From Gammaproteobacteria bacterium (GTDB taxonomy: Bacteria; Pseudomonadota; Gammaproteobacteria; Ga0077536), in the NCBI GenBank assembly GCA_043744805.1, contig JAYTTZ010000239.1, forward strand, positions 1 to 55,631: a stretch of 55,631 bases of DNA, read 5' to 3'. Shown piece by piece: positions 15,728 to 41,463 of this stretch. Below the pieces are notes generated by a model, which was given only the letters and a program-made list of their open reading frames with translations, was not told where the DNA came from and searched no databases. The translations under genes were made by a program, and so were the position numbers. Every line of letters starts with the position of its first letter. The stretch's first letter is position 1.

Positions 15728-15736
15728 GGTGTTTCC

Positions 15737-16216: not shown

Positions 16217-16220
16217 GGAC

Positions 16221-22120: not shown

Positions 22121-22130
22121 TGGGTTCCCG

Positions 22131-24507: not shown

Positions 24508-24637
24508 GCGTTCGTCCCTTCGTTACTGAAGGCGGAAAGTAACGCAAGAGCGCTTGAGCGTATACCGGAAGGACTTCAGCGCCAGGTTTGGCGCCAGGGC
24601 CCGATCCCGTCAAACTCGCCCCGCCATCGAGATTCGA

Positions 24638-26107
24638 ATGACCGACGACACCCCGGATTCCCCGCCGCGCGACGTCCAGATGACTGGTACGCCGGGCCTG
24701 TGGGACTGGCTTGGAACCCAGGGCATCAGCCTCGGCTTCACCACCTACCAGACCAACCGGCTGTTCCTGGTGGGTTGCCATCCCGACGGCCGGCTAGCCG
24801 TGAACGAGCGCCTGTTCGACAAGCCCATGGGCCTCTTCGCCGAAAACGACAAGCTCTACATGGCCTGTCGCTACCAGATATTCCAGTTCGAGAATCGCCT
24901 TGGCGCGGGTGAGCAGCATCACGGCGCGGACCGGCTGTTCGTGCCCAGCACGTCCTGGTTTACCGGCAACCTGAACGTGCACGACGTGGTGATGACCCGC
25001 GACCGACGTCTTGTCTTCATCAACACGGACTTCAGCTGCCTGGCGACGCTCAAACCCGGTTTCAGCTTCGAGCCGCTGTGGCAACCGTCCTTCATCAGCA
25101 AGCTCGTCGCCGAAGATCGCTGCCACCTGAACGGTCTCGCGCTGGAAAACGGCGAGCCCGCCTATGTCACCGCCTGTAGCAGTACCGACGAAGCCGCCGG
25201 CTGGCGCGACCAGCGCAGCAATGGTGGCGTGGCCATCCACCTGCCCAGCAATGGCGTGGTGGCCTCTGGCCTGTCCATGCCGCACTCGCCGCGCGTCTAT
25301 CGCGGCAAGCTGTGGCTGCTGAATTCTGGCACCGGCGAACTCGGCCACGTGACCAACGGACGCTTCCACCCGCTGTGCTTCCTGCCCGGCTTCGTCCGCG
25401 GGCTCGTGCTGTGGCGCGACTTCGCCATTGTCGGGCTGTCGAAGCTACGCTCCAGGACGTTCGCCGGGCTCGAATTGGAACGCCGACTGGAAGCCCAGGG
25501 CCAGACCTCCCGGTGCGGCCTCGCGGTGGTCGATCTCACTACGGGCGCCCTGCTCCACAGCCTGCAGATCGACGGCGTGGTGGAAGAACTCTTCGACGTG
25601 GTGGTACTGCCCGGCGTGCGCCAGCCGCGCGCGGTCGGCTTCCAGGGTGACGACATCGACCGACTCGTGACCTTCCCGGGCTCCAACGGACTCGTCATCA
25701 CCAAACCTACCGTCCAGCGCCCCGGCATCGGCACCACGGGGCATTCGCCGGGGCTGCCGCGCGGCACACCCGAAACAACCCGCCTGTCGGTGAAGTACCA
25801 ACGCGTGTTCCACCTCAATCCCGACAACCTGCTGGACTACGAATCGATGACCTCGCCAAGCCTCGCGACGCGTTGGCCGACGCGAGCGCAGCGGGGAGAA
25901 CTGCTGGGCGTGGCGGCCTCGATCAATGGTGATCTGATTGGCCTGGCCGTAGCCGAGCGCTGGACCGATGAACACGCGCAACCCGCAGCGGAACTCATTT
26001 CCCTGAAAGTGCTGCCCGCCTATCCGGAAGGCCCCATCAGCGAGCGGCTCGTCAAACAACTGGAAGCGCTCGTTGGCCAGGCGCTGGCAGGGCCGCCGCC
26101 CGGGTAA
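24638..26107 (+). CDS. TIGR03032 (DUF4915) family protein with degenerate GNAT-like C-terminal extension
   Basis: FTTYQTNRLF; EDRCHLNGLA; GLSMPHSPR; LLNSGTG; PGFVRGL; ELFDVVVLPGV. Confidence 0.85.
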   Translation: MTDDTPDSPPRDVQMTGTPGLWDWLGTQGISLGFTTYQTNRLFLVGCHPDGRLAVNERLFDKPMGLFAENDKLYMACRYQIFQFENRLGAGEQHHGADRLFVPSTSWFTGNLNVHDVVMTRDRRLVFINTDFSCLATLKPGFSFEPLWQPSFISKLVAEDRCHLNGLALENGEPAYVTACSSTDEAAGWRDQRSNGGVAIHLPSNGVVASGLSMPHSPRVYRGKLWLLNSGTGELGHVTNGRFHPLCFLPGFVRGLVLWRDFAIVGLSKLRSRTFAGLELERRLEAQGQTSRCGLAVVDLTTGALLHSLQIDGVVEELFDVVVLPGVRQPRAVGFQGDDIDRLVTFPGSNGLVITKPTVQRPGIGTTGHSPGLPRGTPETTRLSVKYQRVFHLNPDNLLDYESMTSPSLATRWPTRAQRGELLGVAASINGDLIGLAVAERWTDEHAQPAAELISLKVLPAYPEGPISERLVKQLEALVGQALAGPPPG

Positions 26108-26201
26108 GCTCGATGGGTGCGCAAGGCTGCTACGCGCCAACTGAAATCCCCGGAGTGGCAGGCGCCACCCACCCGTTGCCTGGCCCGGACGGAGTTCCTC
26201 C

Positions 26202-26477
26202 ATGAGTTCGCCCCTGTTCAGCGCCCCGATCGTCAATCCCTTCGGGCTCGACACAGTCAACTCATGGGCAGCACCGTCCTGCGTGGACAGCGACGGCGAT
26301 GGCGATTTTTACGACCGCACCGCCGACGTGGTGTATGGCAACGTCGATACGGATCCAGCGCCTGGGTTCTCCCGCAAGGTGCTGGGACCTGCGACTCTTG
26401 TAATCGGGGACTTCTCCTCTGTGTGGGTGGCGATGCAAGGCTTAGCCACGTCGAAAAGAGAAATTGGCCTGCGCTAG
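26202..26477 (+). pseudogene. Internally deleted relic of an FG-GAP/RTX paralog (N-terminus fused to C-terminus)
   Basis: MSSPLFSAPIVNPFGL...DSDGDGDF matches the start of 35668. YDRTADVVYGNVDTDPAPGFSRKVLG...GDF matches the end of all three paralogs. Confidence 0.8.
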
Positions 26478-26510
26478 ACTCGGGGCCTCCTCACCATCGC
26501 GTAGTACCGC

Positions 26511-28619
26511 ATGATCGCGCAAAACCTGCAGCCCCCCCTCCCGCCAGCGAGCACCACCCCGGGCGCTTCGCCCAGCTTCGCCAATCCGCTCGGCAATGCC
26601 TTCGGGATCACCCTCGTGGGCAGCTATGCCAGTCCGGCGTTTGCTGATATCGACAACGACGGGGATCTGGATCTCTTCATCGGGGACGACAGCGGGCTGT
26701 GTCTGTTCGTCCAGAATTCGGGCAGCGCGAGCGCCCCCGCCTTCCACGCCGTGTGGGATGGCTTTGGCCTCGAGGATGTCGGGCGCTACGCGAGCCCGAG
26801 CTTCGCGGACATCGATGGCGATGGCGATCTCGATGCCTTCATCGGCAACTACGACGGGGAAGTTCGCTTCTTCCGCAACAGCGGCACGGCGAGTGCGCCT
26901 GCCTTCACCCCCGAAATCGACAACGGCGGCCTCGGCGACATGGGCTATGGCGCGAAACCCGCCTTCGTGGACATCGACGGCGATGGCGACTTCGACGCCT
27001 TCGTCGGCAGCCAGGCCGGGACCATCCACTTCTTCAGGAATACCGGTAGCGCGGGCGTACCGGCCTTCTCGGCTGAAACCGGCAATGGCGGTCTCGTCGA
27101 CGTCGGCTCCCAGGCCAGTCCGAGCTTCGCCGACATCGACGGCGATAGTGACTTCGATGTGCTGGTGGGCGAGCGCGGGGCGGGCTTGCGCTTCTTCCGC
27201 AACACTGGTGATGCCACGACGCCCGCCTTCAGCGAGGAAGCCGAACACTTCGGGCTGTATGGCGTGGGCTCGCACGCCAACGCCACGTTCGCGGATCTCG
27301 ACGGCGACGGCGTGCTCGACGTGCTGGTGGGTCGGGTTGATGGCAGCCACTATTTTTTTCGCAACACGGCGGGTAGCAACGTGTTGCCGGTGGTCCCACC
27401 GCCACCCGTCATCCGCTATGTGGACACGGCCTTCAAGGACGGCTTCGCTGCGCGAACCTTCCGCCTGGACGCCTCGGACGTGGACGCCGGGGACCAGCTT
27501 GGCGCTAATCTCGAAGGCGGCACGGACACCGGCAACGGCACAGTCACGCTGAGTGGACCCTATGGCAGCCTGGTGCTTGATCGCGCCAGCCGCGAGGCCA
27601 TTTTCACGCCCAACGCCAGCGCGATCGAAGCGCTCGCCGCAGCAGCCAGCGTGAGCATAACGTTCACGGTAACCGACGGCACCGGCACTGTCGCGCAAGT
27701 GCTCAACATCGAGATTTCACAGCGCGGCACGACGGAATCGGCAGGCGACGACGTGCTGGTCGGCACCGCCGCGGACGAGGTCTTCGATGCGCTCGGCGGG
27801 GATGACCAGATCGACGGCGGCGCGGGTATCGACACGGCGGCTTATGGCTCGGCCCCGGGCGGGGTTGTCGTCAGCCTTACCTCAGCCGCCGCGCAGGACA
27901 CGGTAAGCGCGGGCATGGATACGCTCGTCCGCATCGAGAACCTGTCGGGCTCCGCGTTCGCTGACCACTTGAGCGGCAACCTCGGGGCCAACCGGCTGGA
28001 CGGCTGGACTGGCGCAGATCTGTTGGCGGGCCTCGCCGGCAACGACACTTATCTCGTGGACAACGCGGGTGACGTGGTCACCGAGGTCGCCAACGCGGGC
28101 ACGGACACGGTACTCACCACACTTGCCAGCTACACCCTGGGCGCCAACGTCGAAATCGGCCGGATCACGGAGGGGAGCACGGCGAAACTGGCCGGCAATA
28201 GCCTCAACAACACCCTCGTGGGCGGCGCGGGCAACAATGTGCTGGTAGGCGATATGGGCGTGGACCGGCTGACCGGCGGCGCCGGCGCGGACACTTTCGA
28301 CTTCAACCGCGCCCGCGAGACAGGCCTCACCAGTGCGAGCCGCGACACCATCACCGATTTCACGCACGCTCAAGGCGACCGGCTGGACCTCGCGACCATC
28401 GACGCCAACACGAACCTTCCCGGCAACCAGCCCTTCACCAAGCCGGTAAGTTCGTCGCTGGCATTCTCCACCACGAAGACCTTCAAAGCCGCCGGACAGC
28501 TTTACTTCGACAAGGCCGCGCACGTGCTCTACGGCAACACGGATGTGGATCCCGCGCCAGAGTTCAGCCTCAAGGTGTTGGGTGCCACGAGCCTGGTCAC
28601 GGGCGATTTCCTGCTGTGA
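26511..28619 (+). CDS. Secreted FG-GAP repeat / VCBS / RTX Ca-binding protein, paralog A (one 5-repeat module)
   Basis: Five DxDGDGD FG-GAP repeats; cadherin/VCBS-like domain; GGxGxD nonapeptides; serralysin-like C-terminus ending GDFLL; no signal peptide. Confidence 0.85.
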   Translation: MIAQNLQPPLPPASTTPGASPSFANPLGNAFGITLVGSYASPAFADIDNDGDLDLFIGDDSGLCLFVQNSGSASAPAFHAVWDGFGLEDVGRYASPSFADIDGDGDLDAFIGNYDGEVRFFRNSGTASAPAFTPEIDNGGLGDMGYGAKPAFVDIDGDGDFDAFVGSQAGTIHFFRNTGSAGVPAFSAETGNGGLVDVGSQASPSFADIDGDSDFDVLVGERGAGLRFFRNTGDATTPAFSEEAEHFGLYGVGSHANATFADLDGDGVLDVLVGRVDGSHYFFRNTAGSNVLPVVPPPPVIRYVDTAFKDGFAARTFRLDASDVDAGDQLGANLEGGTDTGNGTVTLSGPYGSLVLDRASREAIFTPNASAIEALAAAASVSITFTVTDGTGTVAQVLNIEISQRGTTESAGDDVLVGTAADEVFDALGGDDQIDGGAGIDTAAYGSAPGGVVVSLTSAAAQDTVSAGMDTLVRIENLSGSAFADHLSGNLGANRLDGWTGADLLAGLAGNDTYLVDNAGDVVTEVANAGTDTVLTTLASYTLGANVEIGRITEGSTAKLAGNSLNNTLVGGAGNNVLVGDMGVDRLTGGAGADTFDFNRARETGLTSASRDTITDFTHAQGDRLDLATIDANTNLPGNQPFTKPVSSSLAFSTTKTFKAAGQLYFDKAAHVLYGNTDVDPAPEFSLKVLGATSLVTGDFLL

Positions 28620-30718
28620 GCCCGGATCCACGAGAATCCGCGCAGGCCTGCTTCCAGCAGGGGCGGACTGCGCGGCGCGACGGTGATGCAAGCGCCGCCA
28701 CCGCCCTGTTCCGCCGCGCCATTGCACTGGACCCAACCTACATCCCGCCTTACAACAACCTGGCCACCTTGCTGCAAGGTCTGGGTGAATCCGCTGCAGC
28801 CGTGGCGCTGCTGGAGCAGGCGCTCCAGCTGGGGCCGGACAAGCCTGTCTTGCACTGCAACCTCGCCAGCGCCCGGCAGATGCGCGGCGAGCTAGCCCTG
28901 GCGCGAGTCGGTTTCGAGGCAGCGATTGGACTGGATCCCGGCTTTTTCCTCGCCCATTTCAACCTGGGCAAACTCCTGGCGACCGAGGAAGCCTGGGCCG
29001 AGGCCGCGAGCGCCTACACGAAGGCCCTGCAACTCAAACCTGACGCTGGCGAGGTGCACCTCGAACTTGGCCATCTTTACCGCCAGCGCGACCGCTTCGA
29101 CGAGGCGCTGGACTGCTACAAGGCTGCAACGCGCCTGATGCCGGATTCGGCCGCAGCCCTCAATACCCTCGGTGCGCTCCTGCAGCAGCGTGGGGAGAGC
29201 AAGTTTTCGCGCCACTGTTACCAGCGGGCGCTCAAGCTAGCGCCCGATTTCGCCCTGGCCCACGCCAACCTCGCGATGCTCTGCGAAAACGCCGGCGAAC
29301 TCGAAACGGCCATCGCGCACTACACGCGGGCGGTAGCACTGCAACCGGACATGCTGAACGCCCACTACAACCTCAATTACCTGCGGCTGAAACTCGCCGA
29401 CTGGGAAGATCTGGACGCACGCATCGCGTCGCTGGCACGCCTTACCGCCGCCCACCTGGCGGAAGGTCGCACCGTCTCACTGCCGCTCTTTTCGCTGCTG
29501 TCCCTGCCCTTGCCCGCCGAACTGCTGCTGGCCGTCACCCGCAACATCGCGGACGGCCACGCCAGCGCTGCCCGGGCAATGCGCATGGATTTCCCGGCGC
29601 AAACCGTTGCCCTGGATCCCTCGCCGCCCAGGCTGCGCGTGGGCTATGTCTCGCCCGATTTCCGCCGCCATGCGGTGGGGCGCCTCATCCACGAGATGTT
29701 CCAGCACCATCGGCGGCCTGATTTCGAAATCTTCGCTTACAGCCTCTGCCCGGTGGAAGATCGTTTCACCACGGCCATCCGCGCAGGCTGCGACCATTAC
29801 CTGGACGCCAGCGAGCTCAGCGTGCCGGCGCTGGCCAAACGGATCCGCGACGACGGCATCCACATCCTCGTCGATCTCGCGGGCTATACCTCGAACGCAC
29901 GCACCACCCTTTTTGCCCTCAAGCCAGCCCCTGTGCAGGTTCAGTTCCTGGGCTATCCCGGCACCATGGGCGCCGACTTCATTCCCTACGTCCTTGCCGA
30001 CCAGACCCTGATCCCGCCCGCCGCCCGCCAGGGCTATACCGAGGAAGTCCTCTACCTCGACCACGCCTGGGTGTCCTCGCCCATGCTGATCCGGGACACC
30101 ACACCGAGTCGCCATGACTTCGGCCTGCCCGAGACCGGCGTGGTGTATTGCTGCTTCAACGGGATCTACAAGATCGAACCGCGGGTCTTCGGCTGCTGGA
30201 TGCGAATCCTGGGGCAGGTGCCGGGAAGCGTGCTGTGGCTGGCCGACGGTGGGCGAGCCCTGGTACGGGAGCGAATGCGCGAGCGCGCTGCCGCGCACGG
30301 CGTCGACCCGAACCGCCTGGTGTTCGCAGGGCACAACCTGCCGCACGCGGACTACCTTGCCCGTTATCGCGTCGCAGACCTGTTCCTGGACACCTTCACT
30401 TATAACGCCGGTTCAACGGCCGCAGGCACCCTGTGGGCCGGCTTGCCCCTGCTGTCCTGCCCCGGGCAAACCTATCCCTCGAGGATGGGGGCAAGTCTGT
30501 CCCACGCCGGAGGATTTACCGATACCCTCTGCGCCTCGGAAGCTGATTACGAAGCCCGCGCCGTTAGCCTTGGACAGGAACCAGCGCAGCTGGCGGACCT
30601 CAAGTCCCGACTGGCAAGCGCCGTGAGAGACGCGCCGCTGTTCAAGCCCGAGCGCTTCGTCAGCAACCTGGAAACCACCCTGGCAGCGCTTTGGCACCGG
30701 GTGGCGACGAAGGCGTGA
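28616..30718 (+). CDS. TPR-containing GT41 glycosyltransferase (O-GlcNAc transferase/SPINDLY-like)
   Basis: N-terminal TPRs; LRVGYVSPDFRRHAV; ILVDLAGYT; PAPVQVQFLGYPGT; CFNGIYKI; DLFLDTFTYNAGST. GTGA overlap with paralog A. Confidence 0.9.
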   Translation: MSPDPRESAQACFQQGRTARRDGDASAATALFRRAIALDPTYIPPYNNLATLLQGLGESAAAVALLEQALQLGPDKPVLHCNLASARQMRGELALARVGFEAAIGLDPGFFLAHFNLGKLLATEEAWAEAASAYTKALQLKPDAGEVHLELGHLYRQRDRFDEALDCYKAATRLMPDSAAALNTLGALLQQRGESKFSRHCYQRALKLAPDFALAHANLAMLCENAGELETAIAHYTRAVALQPDMLNAHYNLNYLRLKLADWEDLDARIASLARLTAAHLAEGRTVSLPLFSLLSLPLPAELLLAVTRNIADGHASAARAMRMDFPAQTVALDPSPPRLRVGYVSPDFRRHAVGRLIHEMFQHHRRPDFEIFAYSLCPVEDRFTTAIRAGCDHYLDASELSVPALAKRIRDDGIHILVDLAGYTSNARTTLFALKPAPVQVQFLGYPGTMGADFIPYVLADQTLIPPAARQGYTEEVLYLDHAWVSSPMLIRDTTPSRHDFGLPETGVVYCCFNGIYKIEPRVFGCWMRILGQVPGSVLWLADGGRALVRERMRERAAAHGVDPNRLVFAGHNLPHADYLARYRVADLFLDTFTYNAGSTAAGTLWAGLPLLSCPGQTYPSRMGASLSHAGGFTDTLCASEADYEARAVSLGQEPAQLADLKSRLASAVRDAPLFKPERFVSNLETTLAALWHRVATKA

Positions 30719-30957
30719 AACCATGGTCCCTCCTCCTGGGGCACGAGCTTCCTGAACTGTGACCGCGTACTGATTGATCCCTTATATAGGTGCTAGGCTT
30801 ATTTGAAGGCCAGCCAGATCGTGGGGCGGGTACGTCGGAGCTGATTTCCCCGGAAATCCGGGCCTCCGATGGCAACCCGGGCGCAGACCGCTTGCGCATG
30901 CCAGGTCGCGGCAGCCGTGTCCAAGTGTTCTCGCTCAAACAGGATGGGAGATCTGTC

Positions 30958-33900
30958 ATGTCAGATCCGCAATTCAGGCCCACGCCGCAGATGGATCCCT
31001 TCGGTCTCGCCGATGTGGGCTACTCGGCGACGCCAACCTTTGCCGACCTTGATGCCGACGGCGATCTGGATTTGCTGGTCGGTAACCTTGACGGCAATCT
31101 CCAGTACTTCCGTAATGTCGGCAGTGCCAGCGCCCCGGCTTTCGTCCACGATTCTGGCAATCTTAACCTCCCTGACGTCGGCTCATTCGCCGCCCCCACC
31201 CTGGGCGACGTCGATGCAGACGGTGATCTGGACCTGATTGTCGGCACGCTCACGCCGACGGGCGCCGAAATCCGGTTCTTTCGCAACGAAGGCACCAGCC
31301 TCGTCCCCAGTTTCACCAGCCAGGCCTCGGCCTTCGGCCTCATTGCCCCCGTAGACAACCTCGGCCCCCAGGTCTTCCCCACGCTGGTCGACATCGACCG
31401 CGATGGCGACCTCGACGCCGTGGTCGGCACGGGCAGCGGCGCGGTCTTCGTCTACATGAACACCGGCACCGTCCAGGTGCCCGCATTTTCATCGGAAGCA
31501 ACCGACCTCGGCCTCGGGGCCAACGGGGCCTACGCCCGCCCGAGCTTTGCGGACCTCGATGGCGACGGGGACCTCGACGCCCTCATTGGCTACGGGGATG
31601 GCAACTTCCACTACTTCCAGAACAACGGCACGGCCACCTTACCGTTGTTCAGCGCCGAGCCTGCACTGAACCCGTTTGGCTTTGGTGACATCGGCGCGCA
31701 CGCGGCGCCGGTACTCGTCGATATCGACCATGACGGCGACCTTGAAGCCTTCGTGGGCACGGACCTCGGCCACATTGCCTTCTTCTCGTCGGACCACCCG
31801 GGCATCACCGTCACCCTCAGCAACGGCGCGACCGCCGTGGCAGAAGGCAGCGGCGGCGCCACGGACACCTTCAACATCGTCCTGAGCAGCGCGCCCCTGG
31901 GCAACGTCGTGATTGCCCTGGACTTCACCAGCGGGCAAGTCACGGCCGATCTCGCCAGCCTCACCTTCACGGCCGACAACTGGAACGTGGCTCAAACGGT
32001 GACGGTTGCAGCCGTTGACGACCGGCGTGGCGAAGGCGCCCACCAGGGCATCATCCAGTTCCACGTCGGCGGCACTGACTCCCTGTACTCCGGCTTTGCC
32101 GTTGCCCCGGTCGTGGTAAACATCGCGGACAACGACCTGCCACAGGTTGATCCCACTTTCGCCGCGCCACTGGTAAACCCCTTCGGCCTCTACGGCGTGG
32201 GCGCGAACGCGAGCATTGCCCTGGTCGACATCGACAGCGATGGCGACCTTGATGCGTTCCTTGGCGGCGAACTGGGCAACAACATTTTCTTCCGGAATGG
32301 CGGCACCGACCTCGCGCCGACATTCGCCGCCGAACAGGACGATTTCGGCCTTTACACCGCGGGCAGCCAGGCCAAGGCCAGCTTCGTCGACCTCAATGCC
32401 GATGGGGATCTGGACGCCTTCCTCGTGAGCCCGGACGGGAGCACCAGCTTCCGCATGAATGTCGGCACCGCCAGTGCCCCGGCCTTCGTCAGCCAGGCCG
32501 GCAATTTTGGCCTTGGCAATCCCGGGCGGAACGCCAACCTGACCTTCGTCGACATCGATGGAGACGGTGATCAGGACGCCTTCGCCGGCCAGGCCAGCGG
32601 TGATTTCACGTTCTATCGCAACATTGGCACCACGGGCGAACCGGATTTCCAGCAGGAAACCGGCGTGTTCGGACTGGCCAACGTTGGTTCCAACGCCAGC
32701 CCGAACTTCATGGACATCGATGGGGACGGTGATCCGGATGCCCTGGTCGGCACGGGCACCGGTGATTTCATCCTGTTCCGCAACGCAGGCTCGGCAACCG
32801 CGCCGAATTTCATCAACGAAGCCAGCAATCCGTTCAACCTCCTGGGGGTCGGCGGCGCTGCCTCGCCGACCCTCGCCGACGTCGATGCCGACGGCGATCC
32901 GGACCTTCTCACCAGCGACCAGTCCGGCAACGTGCAGTTCTTCAATAACACGGCACTGCGCCCCGCCGGGCTCACCATTACGGTGTCGGATGGTTCCACG
33001 CTGTTGTCCGAAAACGGCATGACCGACGGCTACTCGGTGGTCCTCAACCGCGCGCCGACCCACGCCGTCGTGGTTTCGCTGGTCACCAACCACCAGGTCA
33101 CCACCAGCGATGTCGCAGAACTCGTGTTCACGCCCGCGAACTGGGACATCCCCCAGACCGTCATGCTCGCGGCGATCGACGACACCGTGGGCGAAGGCAG
33201 CCAGTTGGTGGTGGTCGCCCATCGCGCGAGCAGCGCGGACAGCCATTACGACGGCTTGGTCATCAACAGCGTGGTCGCCAAGGTCTTCGACAACGACCTC
33301 GCGGTAACCGCACAACCCAGTTTTGCCAATCCCGAGGCAAACCCCTTTGGTCTCGCCAATACAGGTCCGAGCGCGAAGCCGGCCTTCGCCGACCTCGACG
33401 GTGACGGCGATCTCGACGTCGTCGTCGGCCTCAACGACGGCAGCTTCCGTTTCTTCCGCAACGAGGGCTCGACAACCGCGCCAAGTTTCGTGGCGAAAGG
33501 AGAGACCTTTGGCCTCGGCAACGTGGGCAGTATCGCCAGCCCCGCGTTCGTCGACATCGACACCGATGGCGATCTGGATGCCTTCGTGGGCAACCTCAAC
33601 AGCAGCACCGCCTTCTTCCTCAACGTCGGTACCGCCACGGCGCCGGCCTTTGTCCAGGAAAGCAGCAGCTTTGGCCTCGATGACGGTGGCAACGGCGCCG
33701 ACCCGGCCTTCGTCGACATCGACGGCGATGGTGACCTCGATGCCTTTGTTGGCCAGTGGGGCAGCGACACCCTGTTCTTCCGCAACGTCGGCACCGCCAC
33801 GGCACCCGAATTCTCCGGGGAAAGCGACAATTTCGGCCTTGCCGGCGTGGGTCTCGGCGCGAGCCCGACCTTTGCGGACCTCGACGGAGACGGTGACCTC

Positions 33901-35667: not shown

Positions 35668-38600
35668 GTGTCCAGCCCTTTGTTTGGTCCGCCCCTCATC
35701 AACCCGTTTGGACTGTTCGACGTGGGCGCGAGCGCAAAGCCGGTGTTCGCCGATCTCGACGGCGACGGGGACTTCGATCTTTACGTCGGCAGGAGCGACG
35801 GCCTCGTCAGGGTCCTCCTGAACACGGGTAGTGCCAACCTACCGGCCTTTACCAACGCCGGCATCGCCACGCTCGGCCTGATCAACCTGGGCACCTTTTC
35901 CGCGCCCACTTTCGTTGACATCGACGGTGACGGCGACCTTGATGCCTTCCAGGGTAATGGGGTCGGCAACACCATTTTTTACCGCAATACCGGCACGGCC
36001 ACGGCGCCTGCCTTCTTCAAGCAGACCTCGGCGTTTGGAATCAGCGATGTCGGCGACTATGCCGCGCCGGCCTTCGCGGACATCGACCACGACGGCGACA
36101 TGGATGCCTTCATCGGCGGCAAGGACGGCGTTACGCGGTTTTTCCGCAACCAGGGGACTTCAACGGCCCCCGCCTTCGTGCTCCAGACCAGCAACTTCGG
36201 CCTTACCGACGTCGGCAACCGTGCCGCTCCCGCTTTTGCCGACTTCGACCAGGACGGCGACCTCGACGCCTTCATTGGCAACGCCAGCGGTGGCATCACT
36301 TATTTCGTCAACTCGGGCACGAACGTGGCACCGGCCTTCAGTGAGTCCACCACGACGTTTGGCCTTGTTGGCGGTGGCGGGCTCAATGCCTCCCCGGGCT
36401 TCGGCGACATCGATGGCGATGGGGATCTCGACGCCTTCGTCGGCACCCAGGACGGCAACACCACCTTCCAATTGAACGGCAATCCGGCCCCGGTGACGAT
36501 TGCCATCAACGGCGGCGTCCTCACCCTCACGGAAGGTGGCGCCAACGACTTCTACACGGTGGTACTGAACGTCCAGCCCATCAGCAATGTCGTCATCGGG
36601 CTGATTCAGGATGGCCGGGTAACCGCACTTGCCTCCTCGCTGACATTCACGCCGCAGAACTGGAACATCCCCCAGGCCGTCACCGTAAAGGCAGTGAACG
36701 ATACCGTTTACGAGGGCACCCACTTTGGCCTCATCCAGCACACGGTCATCAGTGCCGATCCCCAATACGGTGGCAAGGCCGCCGCCCCCGTGTCAGCCAC
36801 CATCACTGACAACGATCTCATTCCCGGCGAAGCCAGTTTCTCCCCGCCGCTGACCAATCCTTTCGGCATCACCAACGTCGGCTATATCTCGCACCCCGAG
36901 TTCGCCGACATCGACGGTGACGGGGACATGGATCTCTTCATCGGCACCTACGACGGCACGACGCGGTTTTTCCTCAACGCGGGGACTACCAGCATGCCCG
37001 CCTTCGTGCTCCAGACCAGCAACTTCGGCCTTGCCGACGTCGGCAAGAGCGCCGCCCCGGCGTTCGTCGACATCGATGCTGACGGGGATCTGGATGCCTT
37101 CGTAGGCAACGCAGCGGGCCAAATCGTGTTCTTCCGCAATACCGGGACGGTCAGCACGCCAGGCTTTACCAGCGAAACGGGAAATTTCGGGCTGGCCTTC
37201 ACCGACACCTACGCCACCCCGACGTTCGTCGACATCGATGGGGACGGCGACCTCGACGCCGTGATCGGCGGCTACAGTGGGAGCACGGTGTTCTTCCGCA
37301 ACAGCGGCACCGCTAGCGCCCCCAACTTCGGCCCAACGGCAACCAATGCCTTCGGTCTTGCGCAGGTCGCGTCCAATGCCACTCCGAGCTTTGCCGACAT
37401 CGACGGCGACGGCGACAAGGATGCCTTCATTACCGGCTTCTTCGATGAAATCATCCTTTCCCGCAATACGGGAGGCCTGAACTCGCCGAGTTTCAGCACC
37501 GACACAGGCACCTTCGGCCTCGCGATTACGGGCATGCGGGCAGTGCCGACCTTCGTCGACATCAACGGTGACGGCGACCTCGACGCCTTCATCGGGGACA
37601 ACTACGGTGACCTCCAGTTCTTCGAAAACCTGCGCGTAAACAACACCAACCCGGTACTGGGCTTCGCAGCCACCATCAACTACATCGACACGGTGGTAGA
37701 CGACGCCTTCGCGCCGATTACCCGCTCCCTGAAGGTCACCGACGTCAACCTCGGCGATTCGCTCACCTTCGGGATCCTCGGTGGCGGCGACGACGGCACC
37801 ACGGCCAGCTTCACGAGTGATTTCGGCGTCCTGACGCTCCTGAAGGCCACCGGTGTATTTACCTTCCTGCCGAACGACGCCGCCATCGAGGCCTTGAGCA
37901 GCGCAGCGAGCGAAGACTTCATCATCACCGTAACCGACGGTATGGGCACGGCCCAGCGCTTCCTCACGCTCAGCATCGCGCAGAGCGGCGTGACCGAAAC
38001 CGAGGGCGCCGACGTGCTCACCGGCACGGTCGGCGATGACCTCTTCGATGGTTTTGGTGGCGACGATATCTTCAACGGCCTGGCGGGTAACGACACGGTC
38101 GGGTTCGGCTCGGCAGCCGTTGGCGTCACGGTAAGCCTGGCGACGACCCAGCTGCAGGACACAGGTGTCGGCAGCGTCACGCTCAACAGCATCGAGAACC
38201 TGACGGGCTCCGCGTTCGACGACGTGCTCATCAGCAGCAGTGGCAACAACATCCTGAATGGCGCGGGGGGTGCCGACACAGCGTCTTATGCCGCGGCCAC
38301 CGGAGCCGTGAGCGTAAGCCTGCTGGTGGCCGGCGCGCAGGACACCGTGAACGCCGGCGCCGACACCCTCGTCAACATTGAAAACCTCACCGGTTCGGCC
38401 TCCAACGACACCCTGACCGGCGACGCGCAGGACAATGTCCTCGACGGCGGTGCTGGCGTGGACATCCTCACCGGTGGCGACGGGTCGGACACTTACGTCG
38501 TCGATAGCCTCACCGATGTCGTCAACGAAACCAATCCCGTAGCCGCTACGGGCGGCTTCGATTGGCTCTTCACTTCGGTGAGCGGGCTCACTTTGCCCAC

Positions 38601-41463
38601 CAATGTCGAGAACGGCCGAATCCTCGAGCTGGGCACGCTCGAGGCCCCCTTCACCCTCACCGGGAACGCCCTCGACAACATCCTCATTTCCGGGGATGGC
38701 GACGACGTCCTCGATGGGGGCGTCGGCAGCGATACGGCCGACTACCGGTTTGCCCCGGATGGCGTGACGGTCAGTCTTACGGCCAATGGCGCACAGGACA
38801 CTCTCGGTGCCGGTAGCGACCTGCTGCTCAGGATCGAGAATCTCACCGGCTCCGACTTCGACGACAACCTGACCGGGACCGCAGCCGCCAATCGCCTGGA
38901 CGGCGGTGCAGGCGCCGACGTGATGAACGGCGGTGATGGATCGGACGTTTACACCGTCGATGACCCCGGCGACGTCGTGATCGAAACAAATGCCAACGCA
39001 ACGACCGGTGGCACCGACTGGGTGTTGAGCAAGCTCGCTGCGTACACCCTGCCCAGCAATGTTGAAAACGGGAAAATCGCCGGTTCAGGCGCGGCCAGCC
39101 TGACGGGCAACTCGCTCAACAATGAACTGGTGTCGGGGGAAGGCAACAACACCCTGAACGGCGGCGCTGGCACCGATACGGCTGATTACAGCACTGCCGC
39201 AGGCGCAGTGACCGTGAACCTGGGCATCGGCCCGCAGGCCACCGGCGGTTCTGGCACCGTTACCCTGGTTTCCATCGAGAACCTGCGCGGTTCGGCTTTC
39301 GACGATGTGCTGGGCGGTAACGTCGACACTAACCTGCTCGACGGGGCAGCAGGCGTGGATACGGTGACCTACGCGACGGCCACCGGCAGTGTCACCGTCA
39401 ACCTCGCACTCACGACCGCCCAGAACACGGTCGGCGCGGGCACTGACACCCTGCGCAATTTCGAGAACCTGACGGGCTCTCGCTTCGATGACCTCCTGAC
39501 GGGCAGTGCAGGTTCAAACGTGCTGGACGGCGGCGTGGGTGCCGACAGAATGACCGGGGGCGACGGCGCCGATACCTATTACGTCGACAACGTGGGCGAC
39601 CTCGTGGTCGAAACCAACGCGTCACTCCTCATCGGCGGCCGCGATCTGGTCCTGAGTAACCTGGCCGCCTACACCCTGCCGGCTAACGTCGAGGACGGCC
39701 GAATTGTCCTGGCTGGCCTCGCCAGCCTGACCGGTAACAGCCTCGACAACGTCCTGTTCTCCGGCCCCGGGGACAAGATCCTGAATGGCGGCGCGGGCAA
39801 TGACACCGCGAACTACAGCCTGTCCACCAGCCTGGTGACCGTGAACCTGGCGATCACCGGTCCCCAGACCACCGGGGGCGGCGGCATGGACACGCTGCTC
39901 AACCTCGAAAACCTGACGGGCACCGCATTCAGCGACACGCTTACCGGTGATGGCGGCGCCAATATCCTCGACGGCGGCGCGGGCGCAGACGTGCTCACGG
40001 GCGGTGATGGTTCGGACATTTTCTACGTCGACAACATCGGCGACACGCTGGTTGAAACCAGTGGTGCAAACAGCGGGACCGACTGGGCGTACAGCTACCT
40101 GGCCACTTTCCTGCTGCCAGCCAACATCGAGAACGGGCGCATCCTTGCCAGTGGCTCGGCCGATCTCCAGGGTAATGCGCTCAACAACGTGCTGGTCTCC
40201 GGCACTGGCAACAACATCCTGGACGGCGGTAGCGGCATCGACACCGCGGACTATCGCAGCGCCAGTGGTTTCGTCACCGTCAGCCTCGCAGTCCTGACGG
40301 CGCAGGCCACCGCCAGCTCCGGCCTCGACACCCTGCTCAGCATCGAAAACCTTACAGGGTCCGGCTTCAACGATCAGCTGGCGGGCAACGCCGGTAACAA
40401 TGTGATCGATGGTGGCAATGGCACCGACACCCTCACCTACGCCGCCGCCAGTGGCCGGGTCACGGTGGATCTCGCCCTTGGAGGCGAACAAGACACCACG
40501 AATGCGGGCATGGACACCCTGATCAGCATCGAGAACCTCGTCGGCACTGCACTCGATGACGTCCTGGGGGGCAACGCCAGCGACAACGCCCTGAGCGGCG
40601 GTGCGGGCAACGACCTCCTGAATGGCGGTGCGGGCAACGACCTCCTGAACGGCGGCGACGGCATTGACTCCCTGACCGGTGGGTTTGGGGCGGACAACCT
40701 GAACGGCGATGACGGCAACGATGTCCTGAACGGCGATGACGGCGATGACAGCCTGGCCGGCGGCGGCGATGTCGATAGCCTCTTTGGCGGCGCCGGGAAC
40801 GACATCCTCGACGGCGGCACTGGTGCGGATCAGATGTCCGGTGGTGGCGGCAACGATACCTACTTCATCGACGACGCCGGGGACGTGGTGACCGAGGCCA
40901 GCGGTACAACCGCCGGGATCGATACGGTCGTCAGCAGCCTCGCGAACTACAAGCTGTTATCGAACTTCGAAAACGGGCGCATCGACAGTGCCGCCAACCT
41001 GAACCTCAGCGGCAACTCGCTCAAGAACGCCCTGACCGGCGGCGCGGGCAATAACGTCCTGTTCGGTGCGGGTGGCGCGGATACCCTTAAAGGTGGCCTT
41101 GGCGCGGATACCCTTAAAGGTGGCCTTGGCGCCGACTTCTTCGACTTCAATACCCTCGCGGAATCCGGGATCACGACCACCACGCGCGACACCATCCTGG
41201 ATTTCACCCGCAGCCACGGCGACCGGATTGACCTCGTGGGCATCGACGCCAACACGGCAGTGGCCCATAACCAGGCGTTCAGCAAGGTCACGAGTTCGGC
41301 CACGGCGTTTTCGGCGACGAAGACCTTCACCGGGGCGGGACAACTTTATTTCGACACCAAGTCCCACGTGCTCTACGGCAACGTGGACGCCGATCCTGCG
41401 GCCGAGTTCTCTATCAAGGTGCTCGGCATCGCGAGCCTCGCCAAAGGCGATTTCCTGCTCTAG
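35668..41463 (+). CDS. Secreted FG-GAP/Ig-like/VCBS/RTX protein, paralog C (two 5-repeat modules, long RTX stalk)
   Basis: 10 FG-GAP repeats in two blocks; one Ig-like spacer; five TLPxNVExGRI-type RTX units; C-terminus GDFLL; GTG start after aggag. Confidence 0.88.
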   Translation: MSSPLFGPPLINPFGLFDVGASAKPVFADLDGDGDFDLYVGRSDGLVRVLLNTGSANLPAFTNAGIATLGLINLGTFSAPTFVDIDGDGDLDAFQGNGVGNTIFYRNTGTATAPAFFKQTSAFGISDVGDYAAPAFADIDHDGDMDAFIGGKDGVTRFFRNQGTSTAPAFVLQTSNFGLTDVGNRAAPAFADFDQDGDLDAFIGNASGGITYFVNSGTNVAPAFSESTTTFGLVGGGGLNASPGFGDIDGDGDLDAFVGTQDGNTTFQLNGNPAPVTIAINGGVLTLTEGGANDFYTVVLNVQPISNVVIGLIQDGRVTALASSLTFTPQNWNIPQAVTVKAVNDTVYEGTHFGLIQHTVISADPQYGGKAAAPVSATITDNDLIPGEASFSPPLTNPFGITNVGYISHPEFADIDGDGDMDLFIGTYDGTTRFFLNAGTTSMPAFVLQTSNFGLADVGKSAAPAFVDIDADGDLDAFVGNAAGQIVFFRNTGTVSTPGFTSETGNFGLAFTDTYATPTFVDIDGDGDLDAVIGGYSGSTVFFRNSGTASAPNFGPTATNAFGLAQVASNATPSFADIDGDGDKDAFITGFFDEIILSRNTGGLNSPSFSTDTGTFGLAITGMRAVPTFVDINGDGDLDAFIGDNYGDLQFFENLRVNNTNPVLGFAATINYIDTVVDDAFAPITRSLKVTDVNLGDSLTFGILGGGDDGTTASFTSDFGVLTLLKATGVFTFLPNDAAIEALSSAASEDFIITVTDGMGTAQRFLTLSIAQSGVTETEGADVLTGTVGDDLFDGFGGDDIFNGLAGNDTVGFGSAAVGVTVSLATTQLQDTGVGSVTLNSIENLTGSAFDDVLISSSGNNILNGAGGADTASYAAATGAVSVSLLVAGAQDTVNAGADTLVNIENLTGSASNDTLTGDAQDNVLDGGAGVDILTGGDGSDTYVVDSLTDVVNETNPVAATGGFDWLFTSVSGLTLPTNVENGRILELGTLEAPFTLTGNALDNILISGDGDDVLDGGVGSDTADYRFAPDGVTVSLTANGAQDTLGAGSDLLLRIENLTGSDFDDNLTGTAAANRLDGGAGADVMNGGDGSDVYTVDDPGDVVIETNANATTGGTDWVLSKLAAYTLPSNVENGKIAGSGAASLTGNSLNNELVSGEGNNTLNGGAGTDTADYSTAAGAVTVNLGIGPQATGGSGTVTLVSIENLRGSAFDDVLGGNVDTNLLDGAAGVDTVTYATATGSVTVNLALTTAQNTVGAGTDTLRNFENLTGSRFDDLLTGSAGSNVLDGGVGADRMTGGDGADTYYVDNVGDLVVETNASLLIGGRDLVLSNLAAYTLPANVEDGRIVLAGLASLTGNSLDNVLFSGPGDKILNGGAGNDTANYSLSTSLVTVNLAITGPQTTGGGGMDTLLNLENLTGTAFSDTLTGDGGANILDGGAGADVLTGGDGSDIFYVDNIGDTLVETSGANSGTDWAYSYLATFLLPANIENGRILASGSADLQGNALNNVLVSGTGNNILDGGSGIDTADYRSASGFVTVSLAVLTAQATASSGLDTLLSIENLTGSGFNDQLAGNAGNNVIDGGNGTDTLTYAAASGRVTVDLALGGEQDTTNAGMDTLISIENLVGTALDDVLGGNASDNALSGGAGNDLLNGGAGNDLLNGGDGIDSLTGGFGADNLNGDDGNDVLNGDDGDDSLAGGGDVDSLFGGAGNDILDGGTGADQMSGGGGNDTYFIDDAGDVVTEASGTTAGIDTVVSSLANYKLLSNFENGRIDSAANLNLSGNSLKNALTGGAGNNVLFGAGGADTLKGGLGADTLKGGLGADFFDFNTLAESGITTTTRDTILDFTRSHGDRIDLVGIDANTAVAHNQAFSKVTSSATAFSATKTFTGAGQLYFDTKSHVLYGNVDADPAAEFSIKVLGIASLAKGDFLL
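40597..40650 (+). repeat. 27-bp tandem duplication (RTX nonapeptide GGAGNDLLN x2)
   Basis: ggcggtgcgggcaacgacctcctgaa(t/c) twice, 26/27 identical. Confidence 0.9.
41074..41127 (+). repeat. Perfect 27-bp tandem duplication (GADTLKGGL x2)
   Basis: ggcgcggatacccttaaaggtggcctt repeated exactly. Confidence 0.95.

What the first reader, a model, noticed from the sequence alone, without database searches (positions are those of the whole stretch)
28616..30718. OGT/SPINDLY-like enzyme translationally coupled to adhesin A, with a repeated candidate acceptor loop
Seen: the GT41 start overlaps the paralog A stop (GTGA, 28616-28619), and the catalytic-looking motifs DFRRH and FNGIYK are intact. Most FG-GAP repeats in the paralogs carry an N-x-G-[ST]-x-[ST]-x-P-x-F loop (NSGTASAPAF, NVGTATAPAF, NEGSTTAPSF). 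These loops have no N-x-S/T sequon at that Asn but are Ser/Thr- and Pro-rich. Inference: O-glycosylation of a periodic site on the repeats; the sugar donor is unknown (eukaryotic OGT uses UDP-GlcNAc, SPY uses GDP-fucose).
Basis: partly seen in the sequence, partly recalled or inferred. Interest (0 to 1): 0.7.

Follow-up and report, generated by a model that had tools for sequence, protein, structure and literature searches.

The report
Glycosyltransferase module beside secreted propeller-repeat proteins
A bacterial relative of the human O-GlcNAc transferase sits in a gene module (the enzyme, an uncharacterised propeller protein called DUF4915, and giant secreted FG-GAP repeat proteins) that recurs in several bacterial phyla, which makes those repeat proteins the first testable natural substrates for this kind of bacterial enzyme.

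Summary
A 700-aa TPR + GT41 gene (28616-30718) starts in a GTGA overlap with the stop of a 702-aa FG-GAP/RTX protein. DFRRH and FNGIYK align to hOGT D554-H558 and N838-K842. The junction is identical in independent assemblies from four sediment metagenome runs.

- In 80 GT41 loci from species genomes, 11 of the 13 enzymes most like this one have a DUF4915/TIGR03032 gene beside them. Only 1 of the other 67 does.
- Many relatives are fused to DUF4915.
- At least 14 of 21 such modules carry a giant FG-GAP protein within 10 kb, often with RTX repeats. Controls: 2 of 68.
- The window has the same trio (DUF4915 at 24638-26107).

The enzyme-to-repeat-protein link is therefore conserved. The proposed acceptor loop is not tied to GT41. 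It is the strand 3-4 hairpin of a widespread five-bladed FG-GAP module. Its Ser/Thr richness tracks DUF4915, including Bacteroidota pairs with no GT41, and several GT41-linked proteins lack the strict motif.

The active site is XcOGT-like, not SPY-like overall, but has Tyr at hOGT C917 and Gly at H920, so GlcNAc is doubtful as donor.

No paper mentions DUF4915. This is a new variant of the dedicated glycosyltransferase-adhesin theme.

The parts
24638..26107 (+). DUF4915/TIGR03032 gene. It is a cytoplasmic beta-propeller (about residues 14-345) plus a C-terminal GNAT-like domain whose acetyl-CoA motif is degenerate. The ORF as listed starts at TTG 24554. The likely start is ATG 24638.
   Evidence: Pfam PF16261 4.7e-128. 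NCBIfam TIGR03032 4.5e-135. A 99%-identical 489-aa protein, P0121, starts at MTDDTP. AlphaFold model pLDDT 83. Foldseek finds only generic six-bladed propellers. Where homologues have YRHQGIGTAL, the window has YPEGPISERL.
26202..26477 (+). 91-aa mini-ORF. It joins the N-terminal first FG-GAP repeat directly to a C-terminal secretion-signal-like segment. Probably a deletion remnant of a further paralogue.
   Evidence: Translation: MSSPLFSAPIVNPFGL...DSDGDGDF | YDRTADVVYGNVDTDPAPGFSRKVLGPATLVIGDF. Compare the N-terminus of C and the C-termini of A, B and C.
26511..28619 (+). Paralogue A (702 aa). One five-repeat FG-GAP module (about residues 25-290, 26583-27380), then a VCBS/Ig-like region, RTX nonapeptides, and a conserved C-terminal T1SS-type tail.
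   Evidence: Pfam FG-GAP_3 7e-30 and HemolysinCabind 6e-17. TIGR03661 at threshold. Five-bladed model pLDDT 87, pTM 0.88.
28616..28619 (+). GTGA stop/start overlap between paralogue A and the GT41 gene.
   Evidence: Confirmed in independent contigs.
28616..30718 (+). TPR-GT41 glycosyltransferase (700 aa). About 7 TPRs (residues 8-260) followed by N- and C-catalytic lobes, with no intervening domain.
   Evidence: Pfam PF13844 1.2e-78 and TPR families. PDB matches: hOGT 434 bits, XcOGT 278, SPY 255. TPR Asn ladder N48, N82, N116, N183, N218, N252.
29657..29671 (+). DFRRH (residues 348-352), aligned to hOGT D554-H558 and, from memory, XcOGT H218.
   Evidence: Ungapped alignment. D348, F349 and H352 conserved in 89 GT41 genes.
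30155..30172 (+). FNGIYK (residues 514-519). K519 = hOGT K842, the donor phosphate-binding lysine.
   Evidence: alignments. K519 present in 86 of 89.
30401..30418 (+). YNAGST (residues 596-601), the donor-binding loop. Y596 sits at hOGT C917 / SPY Y744 / XcOGT Y463; G599 at H920; S600 at T921; T601 at T922. Y-N-A-G-[AS]-T is the signature of the DUF4915-linked subfamily.
   Evidence: Role of the C917/Y744 position from PMC9715652.
30790..35364 (+). Paralogue B. Three five-repeat FG-GAP modules, then RTX repeats and the conserved C-terminal tail. The ORF starts at GTG 30790; the likely start is ATG 30958 (MSDPQF...).
   Evidence: Pfam FG-GAP_3 3e-60 and HemolysinCabind. 15 repeats. N-terminus.
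35668..41463 (+). Paralogue C (1931 aa). Two five-repeat FG-GAP modules, a long RTX array, and the conserved C-terminal tail.
   Evidence: Pfam HemolysinCabind 6e-72 and FG-GAP_3 4e-36. 10 repeats..

Best explanation
The window carries a conserved protein-modification module, not a general O-GlcNAc system. A cytoplasmic TPR-GT41 glycosyltransferase and a cytoplasmic DUF4915 beta-propeller protein act together on the giant FG-GAP repeat proteins encoded beside them. They would act while those proteins are still unfolded in the cytoplasm, before export. Here export is by a type I secretion system, as the RTX repeats and the C-terminal signal indicate.

Most likely chemistry: the TPR superhelix, with its asparagine ladder, holds an extended stretch of the substrate, and the GT41 domain transfers a single sugar from a nucleotide sugar to Ser/Thr hydroxyls. 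The nucleotide is probably UDP, and the sugar probably smaller than GlcNAc. The Ser/Thr-rich strand 3-4 hairpin (N-T-G-T-A-T-A-P-x-F) is the leading but unproven candidate site. DUF4915 either prepares or recognises the same repeat, or modifies the sugar further. In some lineages a GNAT domain and an APS kinase suggest acetylation and sulfation.

Shown: gene anatomy, conserved catalytic residues, conserved synteny and fusions, predicted folds. Inferred: that the FG-GAP proteins are the acceptors, O-linkage, the site, the donor, and the role of DUF4915.
For: 1. Intact enzyme. PF13844 1.2e-78 with 7 TPRs. D348/H352, N515/K519 and T601 match hOGT D554/H558, N838/K842 and T922 and are conserved across 89 GT41 genes. 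The TPR Asn ladder is kept in 6 of 7 repeats.

2. Subfamily-specific synteny with DUF4915. Among 80 genome loci ranked by similarity, DUF4915 lies within 10 kb in 11 of the top 13 and in 1 of the other 67. It is also present in all context look-ups of close homologues that returned a locus: L001, L003-L006, L087-L089.

3. Fusions. DUF4915 is fused to TPR-GT41 in both orders, and also to GT2, GNAT and DUF707.

4. FG-GAP neighbours. An FG-GAP protein lies within 10 kb in 6 of 12 DUF4915+ loci against 2 of 68 DUF4915- loci in the genome scan, Fisher p = 7e-5. Adding Pfam checks and context look-ups gives at least 14 of 21 modules. Several neighbours carry RTX repeats: L004, L012, L016, L089.

5. 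Tight gene boundaries recur by ORF/gene calls. GTGA here; the giant ORF ends at 6278 where the GT41 ORF begins in L011; the fused enzyme ends at 12904 where the FG-GAP gene starts in L089.

6. Topology fits. By eye, GT41, DUF4915 and paralogue A have no N-terminal signal peptide, and A, B and C share RTX repeats and a conserved C-terminal tail.

7. The loop is a predicted surface hairpin between strands 3 and 4 of each blade. Its Ser/Thr frequency is 0.56/0.70/0.56 in linked proteins against 0.14/0.43/0.24 in unlinked ones at columns 39, 41 and 43.

8. The Y-N-A-G-[AS]-T donor loop is specific to the linked subfamily. Tyr at the hOGT C917 position is proposed to exclude GlcNAc (PMC9715652).
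Against: - There is no biochemical or mass-spectrometric evidence. All support is guilt by association.
- The link is one-directional. Of 80 FG-GAP loci from metagenomes, only 1 had DUF4915 and none had GT41 within 10 kb.
- The strict loop motif is almost absent from some GT41-linked FG-GAP proteins (L003, L010, L087, L088).
- The same loop is present in Bacteroidota proteins that have DUF4915 but no GT41. The loop cannot be a GT41-specific acceptor.
- The Ser/Thr contrast is confounded by relatedness, because the linked proteins are closer to the HMM source.
- No T1SS genes, no nucleotide-sugar genes and no APS kinase lie in the window.
- The closest solved bacterial relatives have no established native substrate, as reviewed in PMC9715652: XcOGT showed no O-GlcNAc activity on bacterial lysates or peptides, and TtOGT none in vitro.
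- hOGT H498 is not conserved (F292).
Confidence: 0.55

Rival explanations
1. Ligand-receptor relation rather than enzyme-substrate. GT41/DUF4915, elsewhere with GT2, GNAT, APS kinase or sulfatase, builds or decorates a non-protein glycoconjugate. This could be an acetylated or sulfated oligo- or polysaccharide, or a small glycoside. The secreted FG-GAP propellers would be the lectin-like, Ca2+-dependent proteins that bind it on the cell surface.
For: The FG-GAP module model matches integrin-like fungal GlcNAc lectins (AAL2 4tqj, PVL 2bwm) at E about 1e-5, alongside CRTAC1 and integrins. DUF4915 is also fused to GT2 domains, typical of polysaccharide synthesis. APS kinase or CysDN sits beside the module in L004, L005, L006 and L089, and a sulfatase in L011. 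These are typical glycan-decoration functions.
Against: Every characterised GT41 enzyme I know of acts on proteins (my knowledge, plus PMC9715652). The TPR array with an Asn ladder is a peptide-binding device. Neither GT41 nor DUF4915 shows a membrane segment or export signal by eye, and no polysaccharide export genes recur in the neighbourhoods. In Bacteroidota a lone DUF4915 pairs with FG-GAP genes with no glycosyltransferase within 10 kb.
Confidence: 0.2
2. DUF4915 is the primary modifier, or a dedicated maturation factor, of the FG-GAP repeat and targets the N-T-G-T hairpin. The GT41 is a lineage-specific add-on. It either extends that modification or modifies DUF4915 or other regions (linkers, cadherin/Ig domains) rather than the loop.
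For: DUF4915 sits next to FG-GAP T9SS proteins without GT41 in Lentimicrobium, Crocinitomicaceae and L095. Ser/Thr at loop columns 39 and 41 is highest in the DUF4915-only group, 0.80 and 0.80. DUF4915 is more conserved (58-69% identity) than GT41 (45-62%) across the same taxa. It has many invariant His, Cys, Asp and Arg residues.
Against: No catalytic homologue was found. Foldseek gives only generic propellers at about 10% identity. The DUF4915-only group is just 4 ORFs. This model overlaps the best explanation rather than excluding it.
Confidence: 0.3
3. General OGT-like regulator. The enzyme modifies many unrelated cytoplasmic proteins, and its position among the paralogues is incidental.
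For: Eukaryotic OGT and SPY have hundreds of substrates. A GT41 enzyme in Yersinia pestis was reported to O-GlcNAcylate multiple proteins (PMC11329713 abstract).
Against: The synteny is conserved across phyla and restricted to this subfamily, with fusions and tightly abutting gene boundaries. The GlcNAc-pocket residues are not conserved.
Confidence: 0.07
4. HMW1C-like N-glycosylation of the invariant loop asparagine.
For: HMW1C-type GT41 enzymes are encoded beside their adhesin substrate and act in the cytoplasm (PMC3012730, PMC10507012 abstracts). The loop Asn is the most conserved loop residue.
Against: That Asn has Gly at +2, so there is no N-x-S/T sequon. The same Asn is conserved in FG-GAP repeats in general, which points to a structural role (column 38). 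The enzyme has the TPR array and OGT-type lobes, and its best PDB matches are OGTs.
Confidence: 0.05

Closest known systems
XcOGT (XCC0866, Xanthomonas campestris; PDB 2JLB/2VSN)
   Same: Bacterial TPR + GT41 without the intervening domain. It is the best match to the C-lobe (159 bits). It shares Tyr at the hOGT C917 position, Tyr at H901, His at K898, and the FNxxYK lysine.
   Different: XcOGT keeps His-Thr-Thr (NAHTT) where this subfamily has Gly-[AS]-Thr (NAGST). XcOGT has fewer TPRs, and no cognate substrate or DUF4915/FG-GAP context is known for it. Its context was not examined here.
Human OGT / plant SEC (O-GlcNAc transferases)
   Same: TPR array with Asn ladder. D554/H558 and K842 equivalents are present. 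Highest overall score (434 bits).
   Different: No intervening domain. C917 is Tyr, H920 is Gly, T921 is Ser, H498 is Phe. The enzyme sits in a dedicated operon-like context rather than acting as a global regulator.
SPINDLY (plant protein O-fucosyltransferase; PDB 7Y4I, 8DTF)
   Same: GT41 with TPRs and no intervening domain. Tyr at the Y744 position, proposed to exclude GlcNAc (PMC9715652).
   Different: Much weaker similarity in the catalytic C-lobe (58 bits against 159 for XcOGT). Guanine-binding determinants were not compared.
HMW1C / NGT with HMW1A adhesin (Haemophilus, Actinobacillus, Aggregatibacter)
   Same: A cytoplasmic GT41 enzyme encoded next to the large secreted adhesin it glycosylates at many sites before export. 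This is the closest functional analogy.
   Different: HMW1C lacks TPRs, makes N-linked hexose at N-x-S/T, and its substrate uses two-partner secretion. Here the enzyme is OGT-type, the substrates are FG-GAP/RTX (T1SS-type) proteins, and a DUF4915 partner is present.
Autotransporter heptosyltransferases (TibC/TibA, Aah/AIDA-I) and GtfA/GtfB with serine-rich repeat adhesins (from my own knowledge)
   Same: Dedicated cytoplasmic O-glycosyltransferases encoded beside a repetitive adhesin and modifying a periodic site in its repeats.
   Different: Unrelated enzyme families, different substrate folds and different secretion routes.

Membership tests
CAZy GT41 (OGT-type protein glycosyltransferase) | Match to the GT41 catalytic domain over both lobes | tested here: met
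   PF13844 E = 1.2e-78, 265 bits against a cutoff of 25, in two stretches. hOGT, XcOGT, SPY and TtOGT all match by phmmer.
CAZy GT41 (OGT-type protein glycosyltransferase) | N-terminal TPR array with the substrate-binding asparagine ladder | tested here: met
   TPR families over residues about 8-260. Asn at 48, 82, 116, 183, 218 and 252; Glu at 150.
CAZy GT41 (OGT-type protein glycosyltransferase) | Conserved catalytic and donor-phosphate residues (hOGT D554, H558, K842, T922) | tested here: met
   These correspond to D348, H352, K519 and T601. They are invariant or nearly so in 89 GT41 genes.
O-GlcNAc transferase sensu stricto (UDP-GlcNAc donor) | hOGT sugar and pyrophosphate pocket residues C917, H920, T921; H498; intervening domain | tested here: not met
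   These positions are Y596, G599, S600 and F292. Query residues 485-497 bridge hOGT chain positions 703-830 (7yea sequence index), so the intervening domain is absent.
O-GlcNAc transferase sensu stricto (UDP-GlcNAc donor) | Transfer of GlcNAc to Ser/Thr | not testable with these tools
   Needs an enzyme assay.
SPINDLY-type O-fucosyltransferase | Closest sequence relationship to SPY | tested here: not met
   C-lobe scores: SPY 58 bits, XcOGT 159, hOGT 112.
SPINDLY-type O-fucosyltransferase | Tyr at the Y744 position, which narrows the sugar pocket | tested here: met
   Y596 aligns with XcOGT Y463 and hOGT C917. The equivalence of these positions to SPY Y744 comes from PMC9715652.
HMW1C-like N-glycosyltransferase | TPR-less architecture, with N-x-S/T sequons in the neighbouring adhesin used as sites | tested here: not met
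   TPRs are present. The conserved loop Asn has Gly at +2.
RTX / type I secretion substrate (paralogues A, B, C) | RTX nonapeptide repeats plus a C-terminal secretion signal | tested here: met
   PF00353 6e-17, 2.5e-13 and 6e-72. The last ~60 residues are conserved among A, B and C and end in GDF[LV]L. TIGR03661 scores 17.9 bits against a cutoff of 17.6 for A.
RTX / type I secretion substrate (paralogues A, B, C) | Cognate ABC transporter, membrane-fusion protein and outer-membrane factor nearby | tested here: not met
   None among the window ORFs scanned. These genes can be unlinked, so this does not exclude T1SS.
Translationally coupled gene pair | Stop/start overlap on one strand with an unambiguous downstream start | tested here: met
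   GTGA at 28616-28619, and this is the only start upstream of the conserved N-terminus.
Translationally coupled gene pair | Co-transcription and dependence of downstream translation on upstream translation | not testable with these tools
   Only DNA runs of sediment metagenomes hold the sequence. The consensus promoter/terminator scan was uninformative.

The most novel reading that the evidence does not exclude
DUF4915/TIGR03032 is a new kind of cytoplasmic protein-modifying enzyme dedicated to the strand 3-4 hairpin of five-bladed FG-GAP propeller repeats. It acts alone in Bacteroidota. In Proteobacteria, cyanobacteria and Myxococcota it works with a TPR-GT41, and sometimes GT2, GNAT and PAPS supply, to build a periodic and possibly acetylated or sulfated O-glycan on giant secreted proteins. 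That would be the first native substrate class and pathway for bacterial OGT homologues, and the first glycosylated family of T1SS/RTX cargo.
Probability: 0.3. Interest if true: 0.85.

Novelty: new variant of a known kind. Interest (0 to 1): 0.66.

Why it matters
To my knowledge, bacterial TPR-GT41 'OGT' homologues are widespread, but the solved ones (XcOGT, TtOGT) have no established native substrate or donor. What they do is an open question.

This module supplies a concrete and testable enzyme-substrate hypothesis. The candidate substrate is encoded in the same operon-like unit, is repetitive, so there would be many sites per molecule, and is easy to express as a 270-residue module.

The module also gives a first functional context to DUF4915/TIGR03032. 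That family has about 950 clusters at 50% identity (E <= 1e-30) and no mention in the searched literature.

If confirmed, the finding would add glycosylation to the known pre-export modifications of type I secretion cargo, of which acylation is the established example. It would also bear on how giant adhesin-like proteins of methanotrophs, purple sulfur bacteria and filamentous cyanobacteria are matured.

Tried and rejected
- Literature. No paper holds 'DUF4915' or 'TIGR03032'. Searches for GT41 + FG-GAP and for RTX/T1SS + O-glycosylation + TPR found nothing relevant.
- Function of DUF4915. Profile search of PDB sequences gave only marginal GNAT hits, E about 0.5. Foldseek of a good model gave only generic six-bladed propellers at about 10% identity (LRE, YWTD, Vgb lyase, NHL). 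An arylsulfotransferase-like role, suggested by the APS kinase neighbours, had no structural support among the top 50 hits, so I dropped it as a claim.
- tblastn with window proteins under-detected partners. It missed DUF4915 in L032 and FG-GAP in L004, L012, L087 and L088. I replaced it with HMMs and Pfam (against 38, 79, 81).
- Reverse association. The metagenome scan with the FG-GAP alignment mostly returned distant FG-GAP proteins on short contigs. It shows one-directionality but is a weak estimate.
- Accessory genes. Beyond the trio and an occasional APS kinase, nothing recurs. Neighbours include cytochromes, glycoside hydrolases, RuBisCO and ArsA.
- Organism identity. Exact look-ups of housekeeping proteins were not in the collection. 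The genome scan found no relative above 50% identity. All that is known is that it is a 65% GC sediment-metagenome bacterium.
- The context look-up for Thiorhodococcus P0024 returned nothing.
- The promoter/terminator consensus scan was uninformative in this high-GC DNA.
- The nucleotide part of the donor (UDP or GDP) could not be settled, because I had no residue-level alignment to SPY.

Full report
**1. What is in the window**

The window is 65% GC. It is held, nearly or completely, by Logan contigs of four sediment-metagenome runs from one study.

On the + strand there is a compact unit:
- a DUF4915/TIGR03032 gene. The ORF runs 24554-26107, but the likely start is ATG 24638, judged from the 99%-identical 489-aa protein P0121;
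- a 91-aa remnant ORF (26202-26477);
- paralogue A (26511-28619; FG-GAP_3 x5 plus RTX);
- the TPR-GT41 gene (28616-30718);
- paralogue B (30790 or 30958 to 35364; 15 FG-GAP repeats plus RTX);
- paralogue C (35668-41463; 10 FG-GAP repeats plus a long RTX array).

The flanking genes are ordinary metabolism and signalling: hisD, SDR, TetR, SMP-30, XdhC/MobA, a CoxLMS-like molybdoenzyme, and a GAF-PAS-cyclase. The window ORFs scanned include no type I secretion genes, no nucleotide-sugar genes and no PAPS genes.

**2. Checking the observation**

The GTGA overlap is real. GTG is at 28616-28618 and TGA at 28617-28619. GTG 28616 is the first possible start of its ORF. No other start codon lies before the N-terminal motif conserved in 33 homologues.

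Two 17-kb contigs assembled independently from other runs match 24400-31400 without a single difference. Two 594-bp contigs from further runs span the junction.

DFRRH (residues 348-352) aligns without gaps to hOGT D554-F-G-N-H558. FNGIYK (514-519) aligns to hOGT FNQLYK842 and XcOGT FNNSYK. D348, F349, H352, N515, K519 and T601 are conserved in 89 GT41 genes collected here.

The strict loop pattern occurs 15 times in 30 repeats (A 2, B 7, C 6; one of the six in C is the similar element at a repeat start). The relaxed form N-x-G-[ST]-x3-P-x-F occurs in 25 of 30.

**3. The enzyme**

It has about 7 TPRs, and 6 of 7 carry the asparagine of the 'Asn ladder'. To my knowledge, that ladder binds extended substrate peptides in hOGT. 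The two catalytic lobes follow with no intervening domain.

The C-lobe is closest to Xanthomonas XcOGT (159 bits), then hOGT (112), and far from SPINDLY (58).

In the donor loop, hOGT C917-N-G-H920-T-T reads Y596-N-A-G599-S-T here. Y-N-A-G-[AS]-T is a signature of the subfamily defined below, while other bacterial GT41s vary at these positions.

Zhu et al. 2022 (PMC9715652) argue that an aromatic residue at the C917 position narrows the sugar pocket and disfavours GlcNAc. This holds for SPY Y744, XcOGT Y463 and TtOGT Y419. They note that XcOGT showed no O-GlcNAc activity on bacterial lysates or peptides, and TtOGT none in vitro.

The enzyme looks active, is probably not a GlcNAc transferase, and its donor cannot be named from sequence.

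**4. The decisive evidence is comparative**

Context look-ups of close homologues (52-58% identity) showed a DUF4915 gene beside the GT41 every time. These were Methylovulum, Methylobacter S3L5C, a MAG and two metagenome contigs. In most of them a giant FG-GAP protein was present too.

Thiorhodovibrio and Oscillatoria princeps show GT41, then DUF4915-GNAT, then a giant protein of more than 3000 aa. That protein proved to be made of FG-GAP repeats.

In Nostoc linckia a single DUF4915-TPR-GT41 fusion protein is followed, with overlapping boundaries, by an FG-GAP + cadherin + RTX protein and an APS kinase.

A scan of one genome per species with a GT41 alignment gave 80 loci graded from 50% to 29% identity.
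- DUF4915 is within 10 kb in 11 of the 13 most similar. The two misses are at or near contig ends.
- It is within 10 kb in only 1 of the remaining 67.
- FG-GAP repeats are found in 6 of 12 DUF4915-positive loci against 2 of 68 negative ones (Fisher p = 7e-5).
- Pfam adds FG-GAP+RTX proteins in L004 and L012, a cadherin+RTX protein cut at its N-terminus in L016, and an fn3 giant in L011.

In total, at least 14 of 21 modules have an FG-GAP protein within 10 kb.

DUF4915 is also fused to GT41 in both orders, and to GT2, GNAT, TPR and DUF707 domains.

APS kinase or CysDN sits next to the module in four loci, and a sulfatase in one. None is in the window.

**5. DUF4915**

The family is large: 946 clusters at 50% identity at E <= 1e-30. 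It is very conserved, at 58-69% identity from this window to Methylococcaceae, Nitrosomonas and Lyngbya. It is absent from the searched literature.

The model (pLDDT 83) is a beta-propeller followed by a GNAT-like domain. Foldseek finds only generic six-bladed propellers.

In the window protein the GNAT acetyl-CoA motif is degenerate: YPEGPISERL where relatives have YRHQGIGTAL.

No signal peptide is visible in the proteobacterial or Bacteroidota members.

**6. The loop**

The FG-GAP module of paralogue A is predicted with confidence (pLDDT 87, pTM 0.88) as five four-stranded blades. N-x-G-T-A-S-A lies in the hairpin between strands 3 and 4, and P-x-F starts strand 4. The best PDB match is CRTAC1, then integrins and integrin-like fungal lectins.

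In most linked ORFs, repeat numbers are multiples of five.

The same module, with the same N-T-G-T-x-x-x-P-x-F hairpin, is common elsewhere. That includes Bacteroidota proteins with T9SS sorting domains.

In Lentimicrobium and a Crocinitomicaceae contig those genes are immediately preceded by a propeller-only DUF4915 gene, with no GT41 within 10 kb. One metagenome locus, L095, shows the same pair on a 2.5-kb contig.

Conversely, 80 FG-GAP loci from metagenomes gave DUF4915 in 1 and GT41 in 0. Some GT41-linked FG-GAP proteins have almost no strict loops.

Averaged per ORF, Ser/Thr frequency at the three loop columns is:
- 0.56/0.70/0.56 in GT41+DUF4915-linked proteins;
- 0.80/0.80/0.45 in DUF4915-only proteins;
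- 0.14/0.43/0.24 in unlinked ones.

Loop density differs modestly (0.47 against 0.26, p = 0.02). These contrasts are suggestive but confounded by relatedness. They point to DUF4915 at least as much as to GT41.

**7. Mechanism proposed**

I take the unit to be a dedicated pre-export modification system. GT41 (glycosyl transfer to Ser/Thr of an extended chain held in the TPR lumen) and DUF4915 (unknown step) would act in the cytoplasm on unfolded FG-GAP cargo. That cargo is then exported, here by type I secretion and in Bacteroidota via Sec/T9SS.

Shown: anatomy, conserved residues, synteny, fusions and folds. Inferred: substrate identity, O-linkage, site and donor.

The main rival is that the enzymes make a glycoconjugate which the lectin-like propellers bind. 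A second model gives DUF4915 the primary role.

**8. Comparison with known systems and verdict**

By function, the closest analogue is HMW1C with HMW1A: a cytoplasmic GT41 beside the adhesin it glycosylates. That enzyme is TPR-less and N-linking. By sequence, the closest is XcOGT, which has no known native substrate.

The enzyme is a member of GT41. It fails the tests for an O-GlcNAc transferase in the strict sense, for SPINDLY and for HMW1C.

The finding is a new variant of a known theme and a useful handle on two open questions: what bacterial OGT homologues do, and what DUF4915 is.

Noticed in passing
L090:8700-11326 and L091:7513-11308 (also L095): In Bacteroidota (Lentimicrobium, Crocinitomicaceae), a propeller-only DUF4915 gene sits immediately upstream of one or two ~435-aa five-repeat FG-GAP proteins with T9SS sorting domains. 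No GT41 lies within 10 kb. The DUF4915-FG-GAP pairing is therefore broader than the GT41 link.
   Followed up: partly
L004:1330-4040, L005:2-550, L006:9380-9949, L089:16763-17326; L011:10798-12240: APS kinase (or CysNC+CysD) lies directly beside the GT41/DUF4915 module in four loci, and a sulfatase (with an SGSH_C domain) in a fifth. This hints at sulfation as a further step. No such gene is in the window.
   Followed up: partly
window 26202-26477 (+): A 91-aa ORF joins the N-terminus and first Ca2+-binding loop of an FG-GAP paralogue directly to a C-terminal secretion-signal-like segment (YDRTADVVYGNVDTDPAPGF...GDF). It looks like an internal-deletion remnant of a fourth paralogue.
   Followed up: partly
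window 26583-27380, 31000-34200, 35700-37700; loci L001-L089: In most linked ORFs, FG-GAP repeats come in blocks of five (5, 10, 15, 20, 25 or 30 per protein). One block is predicted as a closed five-bladed propeller, not the seven blades of integrins.
   Followed up: partly
window 25950-26107 (C-terminus of the DUF4915 protein): The GNAT-like tail has lost the acetyl-CoA motif: PEGPIS in place of HQGIG. This is also true in the 99%-identical P0121. Many relatives likewise lack a Pfam GNAT hit, so acetyl transfer is probably dispensable.
   Followed up: partly
window paralogues A-C, each 54-aa repeat (HMM columns 4-13 and 38-47): Each repeat holds two similar elements: [DN]-V-G-S-x-A-S-P-T-F at its start and N-T-G-T-A-T-A-P-A-F in the 3-4 hairpin. 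There are thus two Ser/Thr-Pro-x-Phe hairpins per blade. Column 12 is also Ser/Thr-enriched in linked proteins (0.56 against 0.28).
   Followed up: partly
P0281, P0318, P0340 (L090:10001-11326, L091:8606-11308): The Bacteroidota FG-GAP/T9SS proteins carry a conserved, helix-rich extension of about 60-85 residues before the hydrophobic signal-peptide-like segment. This is unusual for Sec substrates and could be a recognition element.
   Followed up: no
L054:4258-7919: A distant GT41 (30% identity, Prolixibacteraceae) with no DUF4915 nearby is directly followed by a 416-aa FG-GAP protein. This may be an independent GT41-FG-GAP pairing.
   Followed up: no
window 30790-30958: The listed start of paralogue B (GTG 30790) adds 56 residues with no similarity to the other paralogues. 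ATG 30958 (MSDPQFRPTPQMDPFGL) is the more likely start, which leaves about 240 bp between the GT41 gene and B.
   Followed up: partly
window 13328-17225 (-) and 21993-23680 (+): A CoxL/M/S-type molybdenum hydroxylase cluster with XdhC and MobA-like maturation genes nearby. Ordinary and unrelated to the finding.
   Followed up: no
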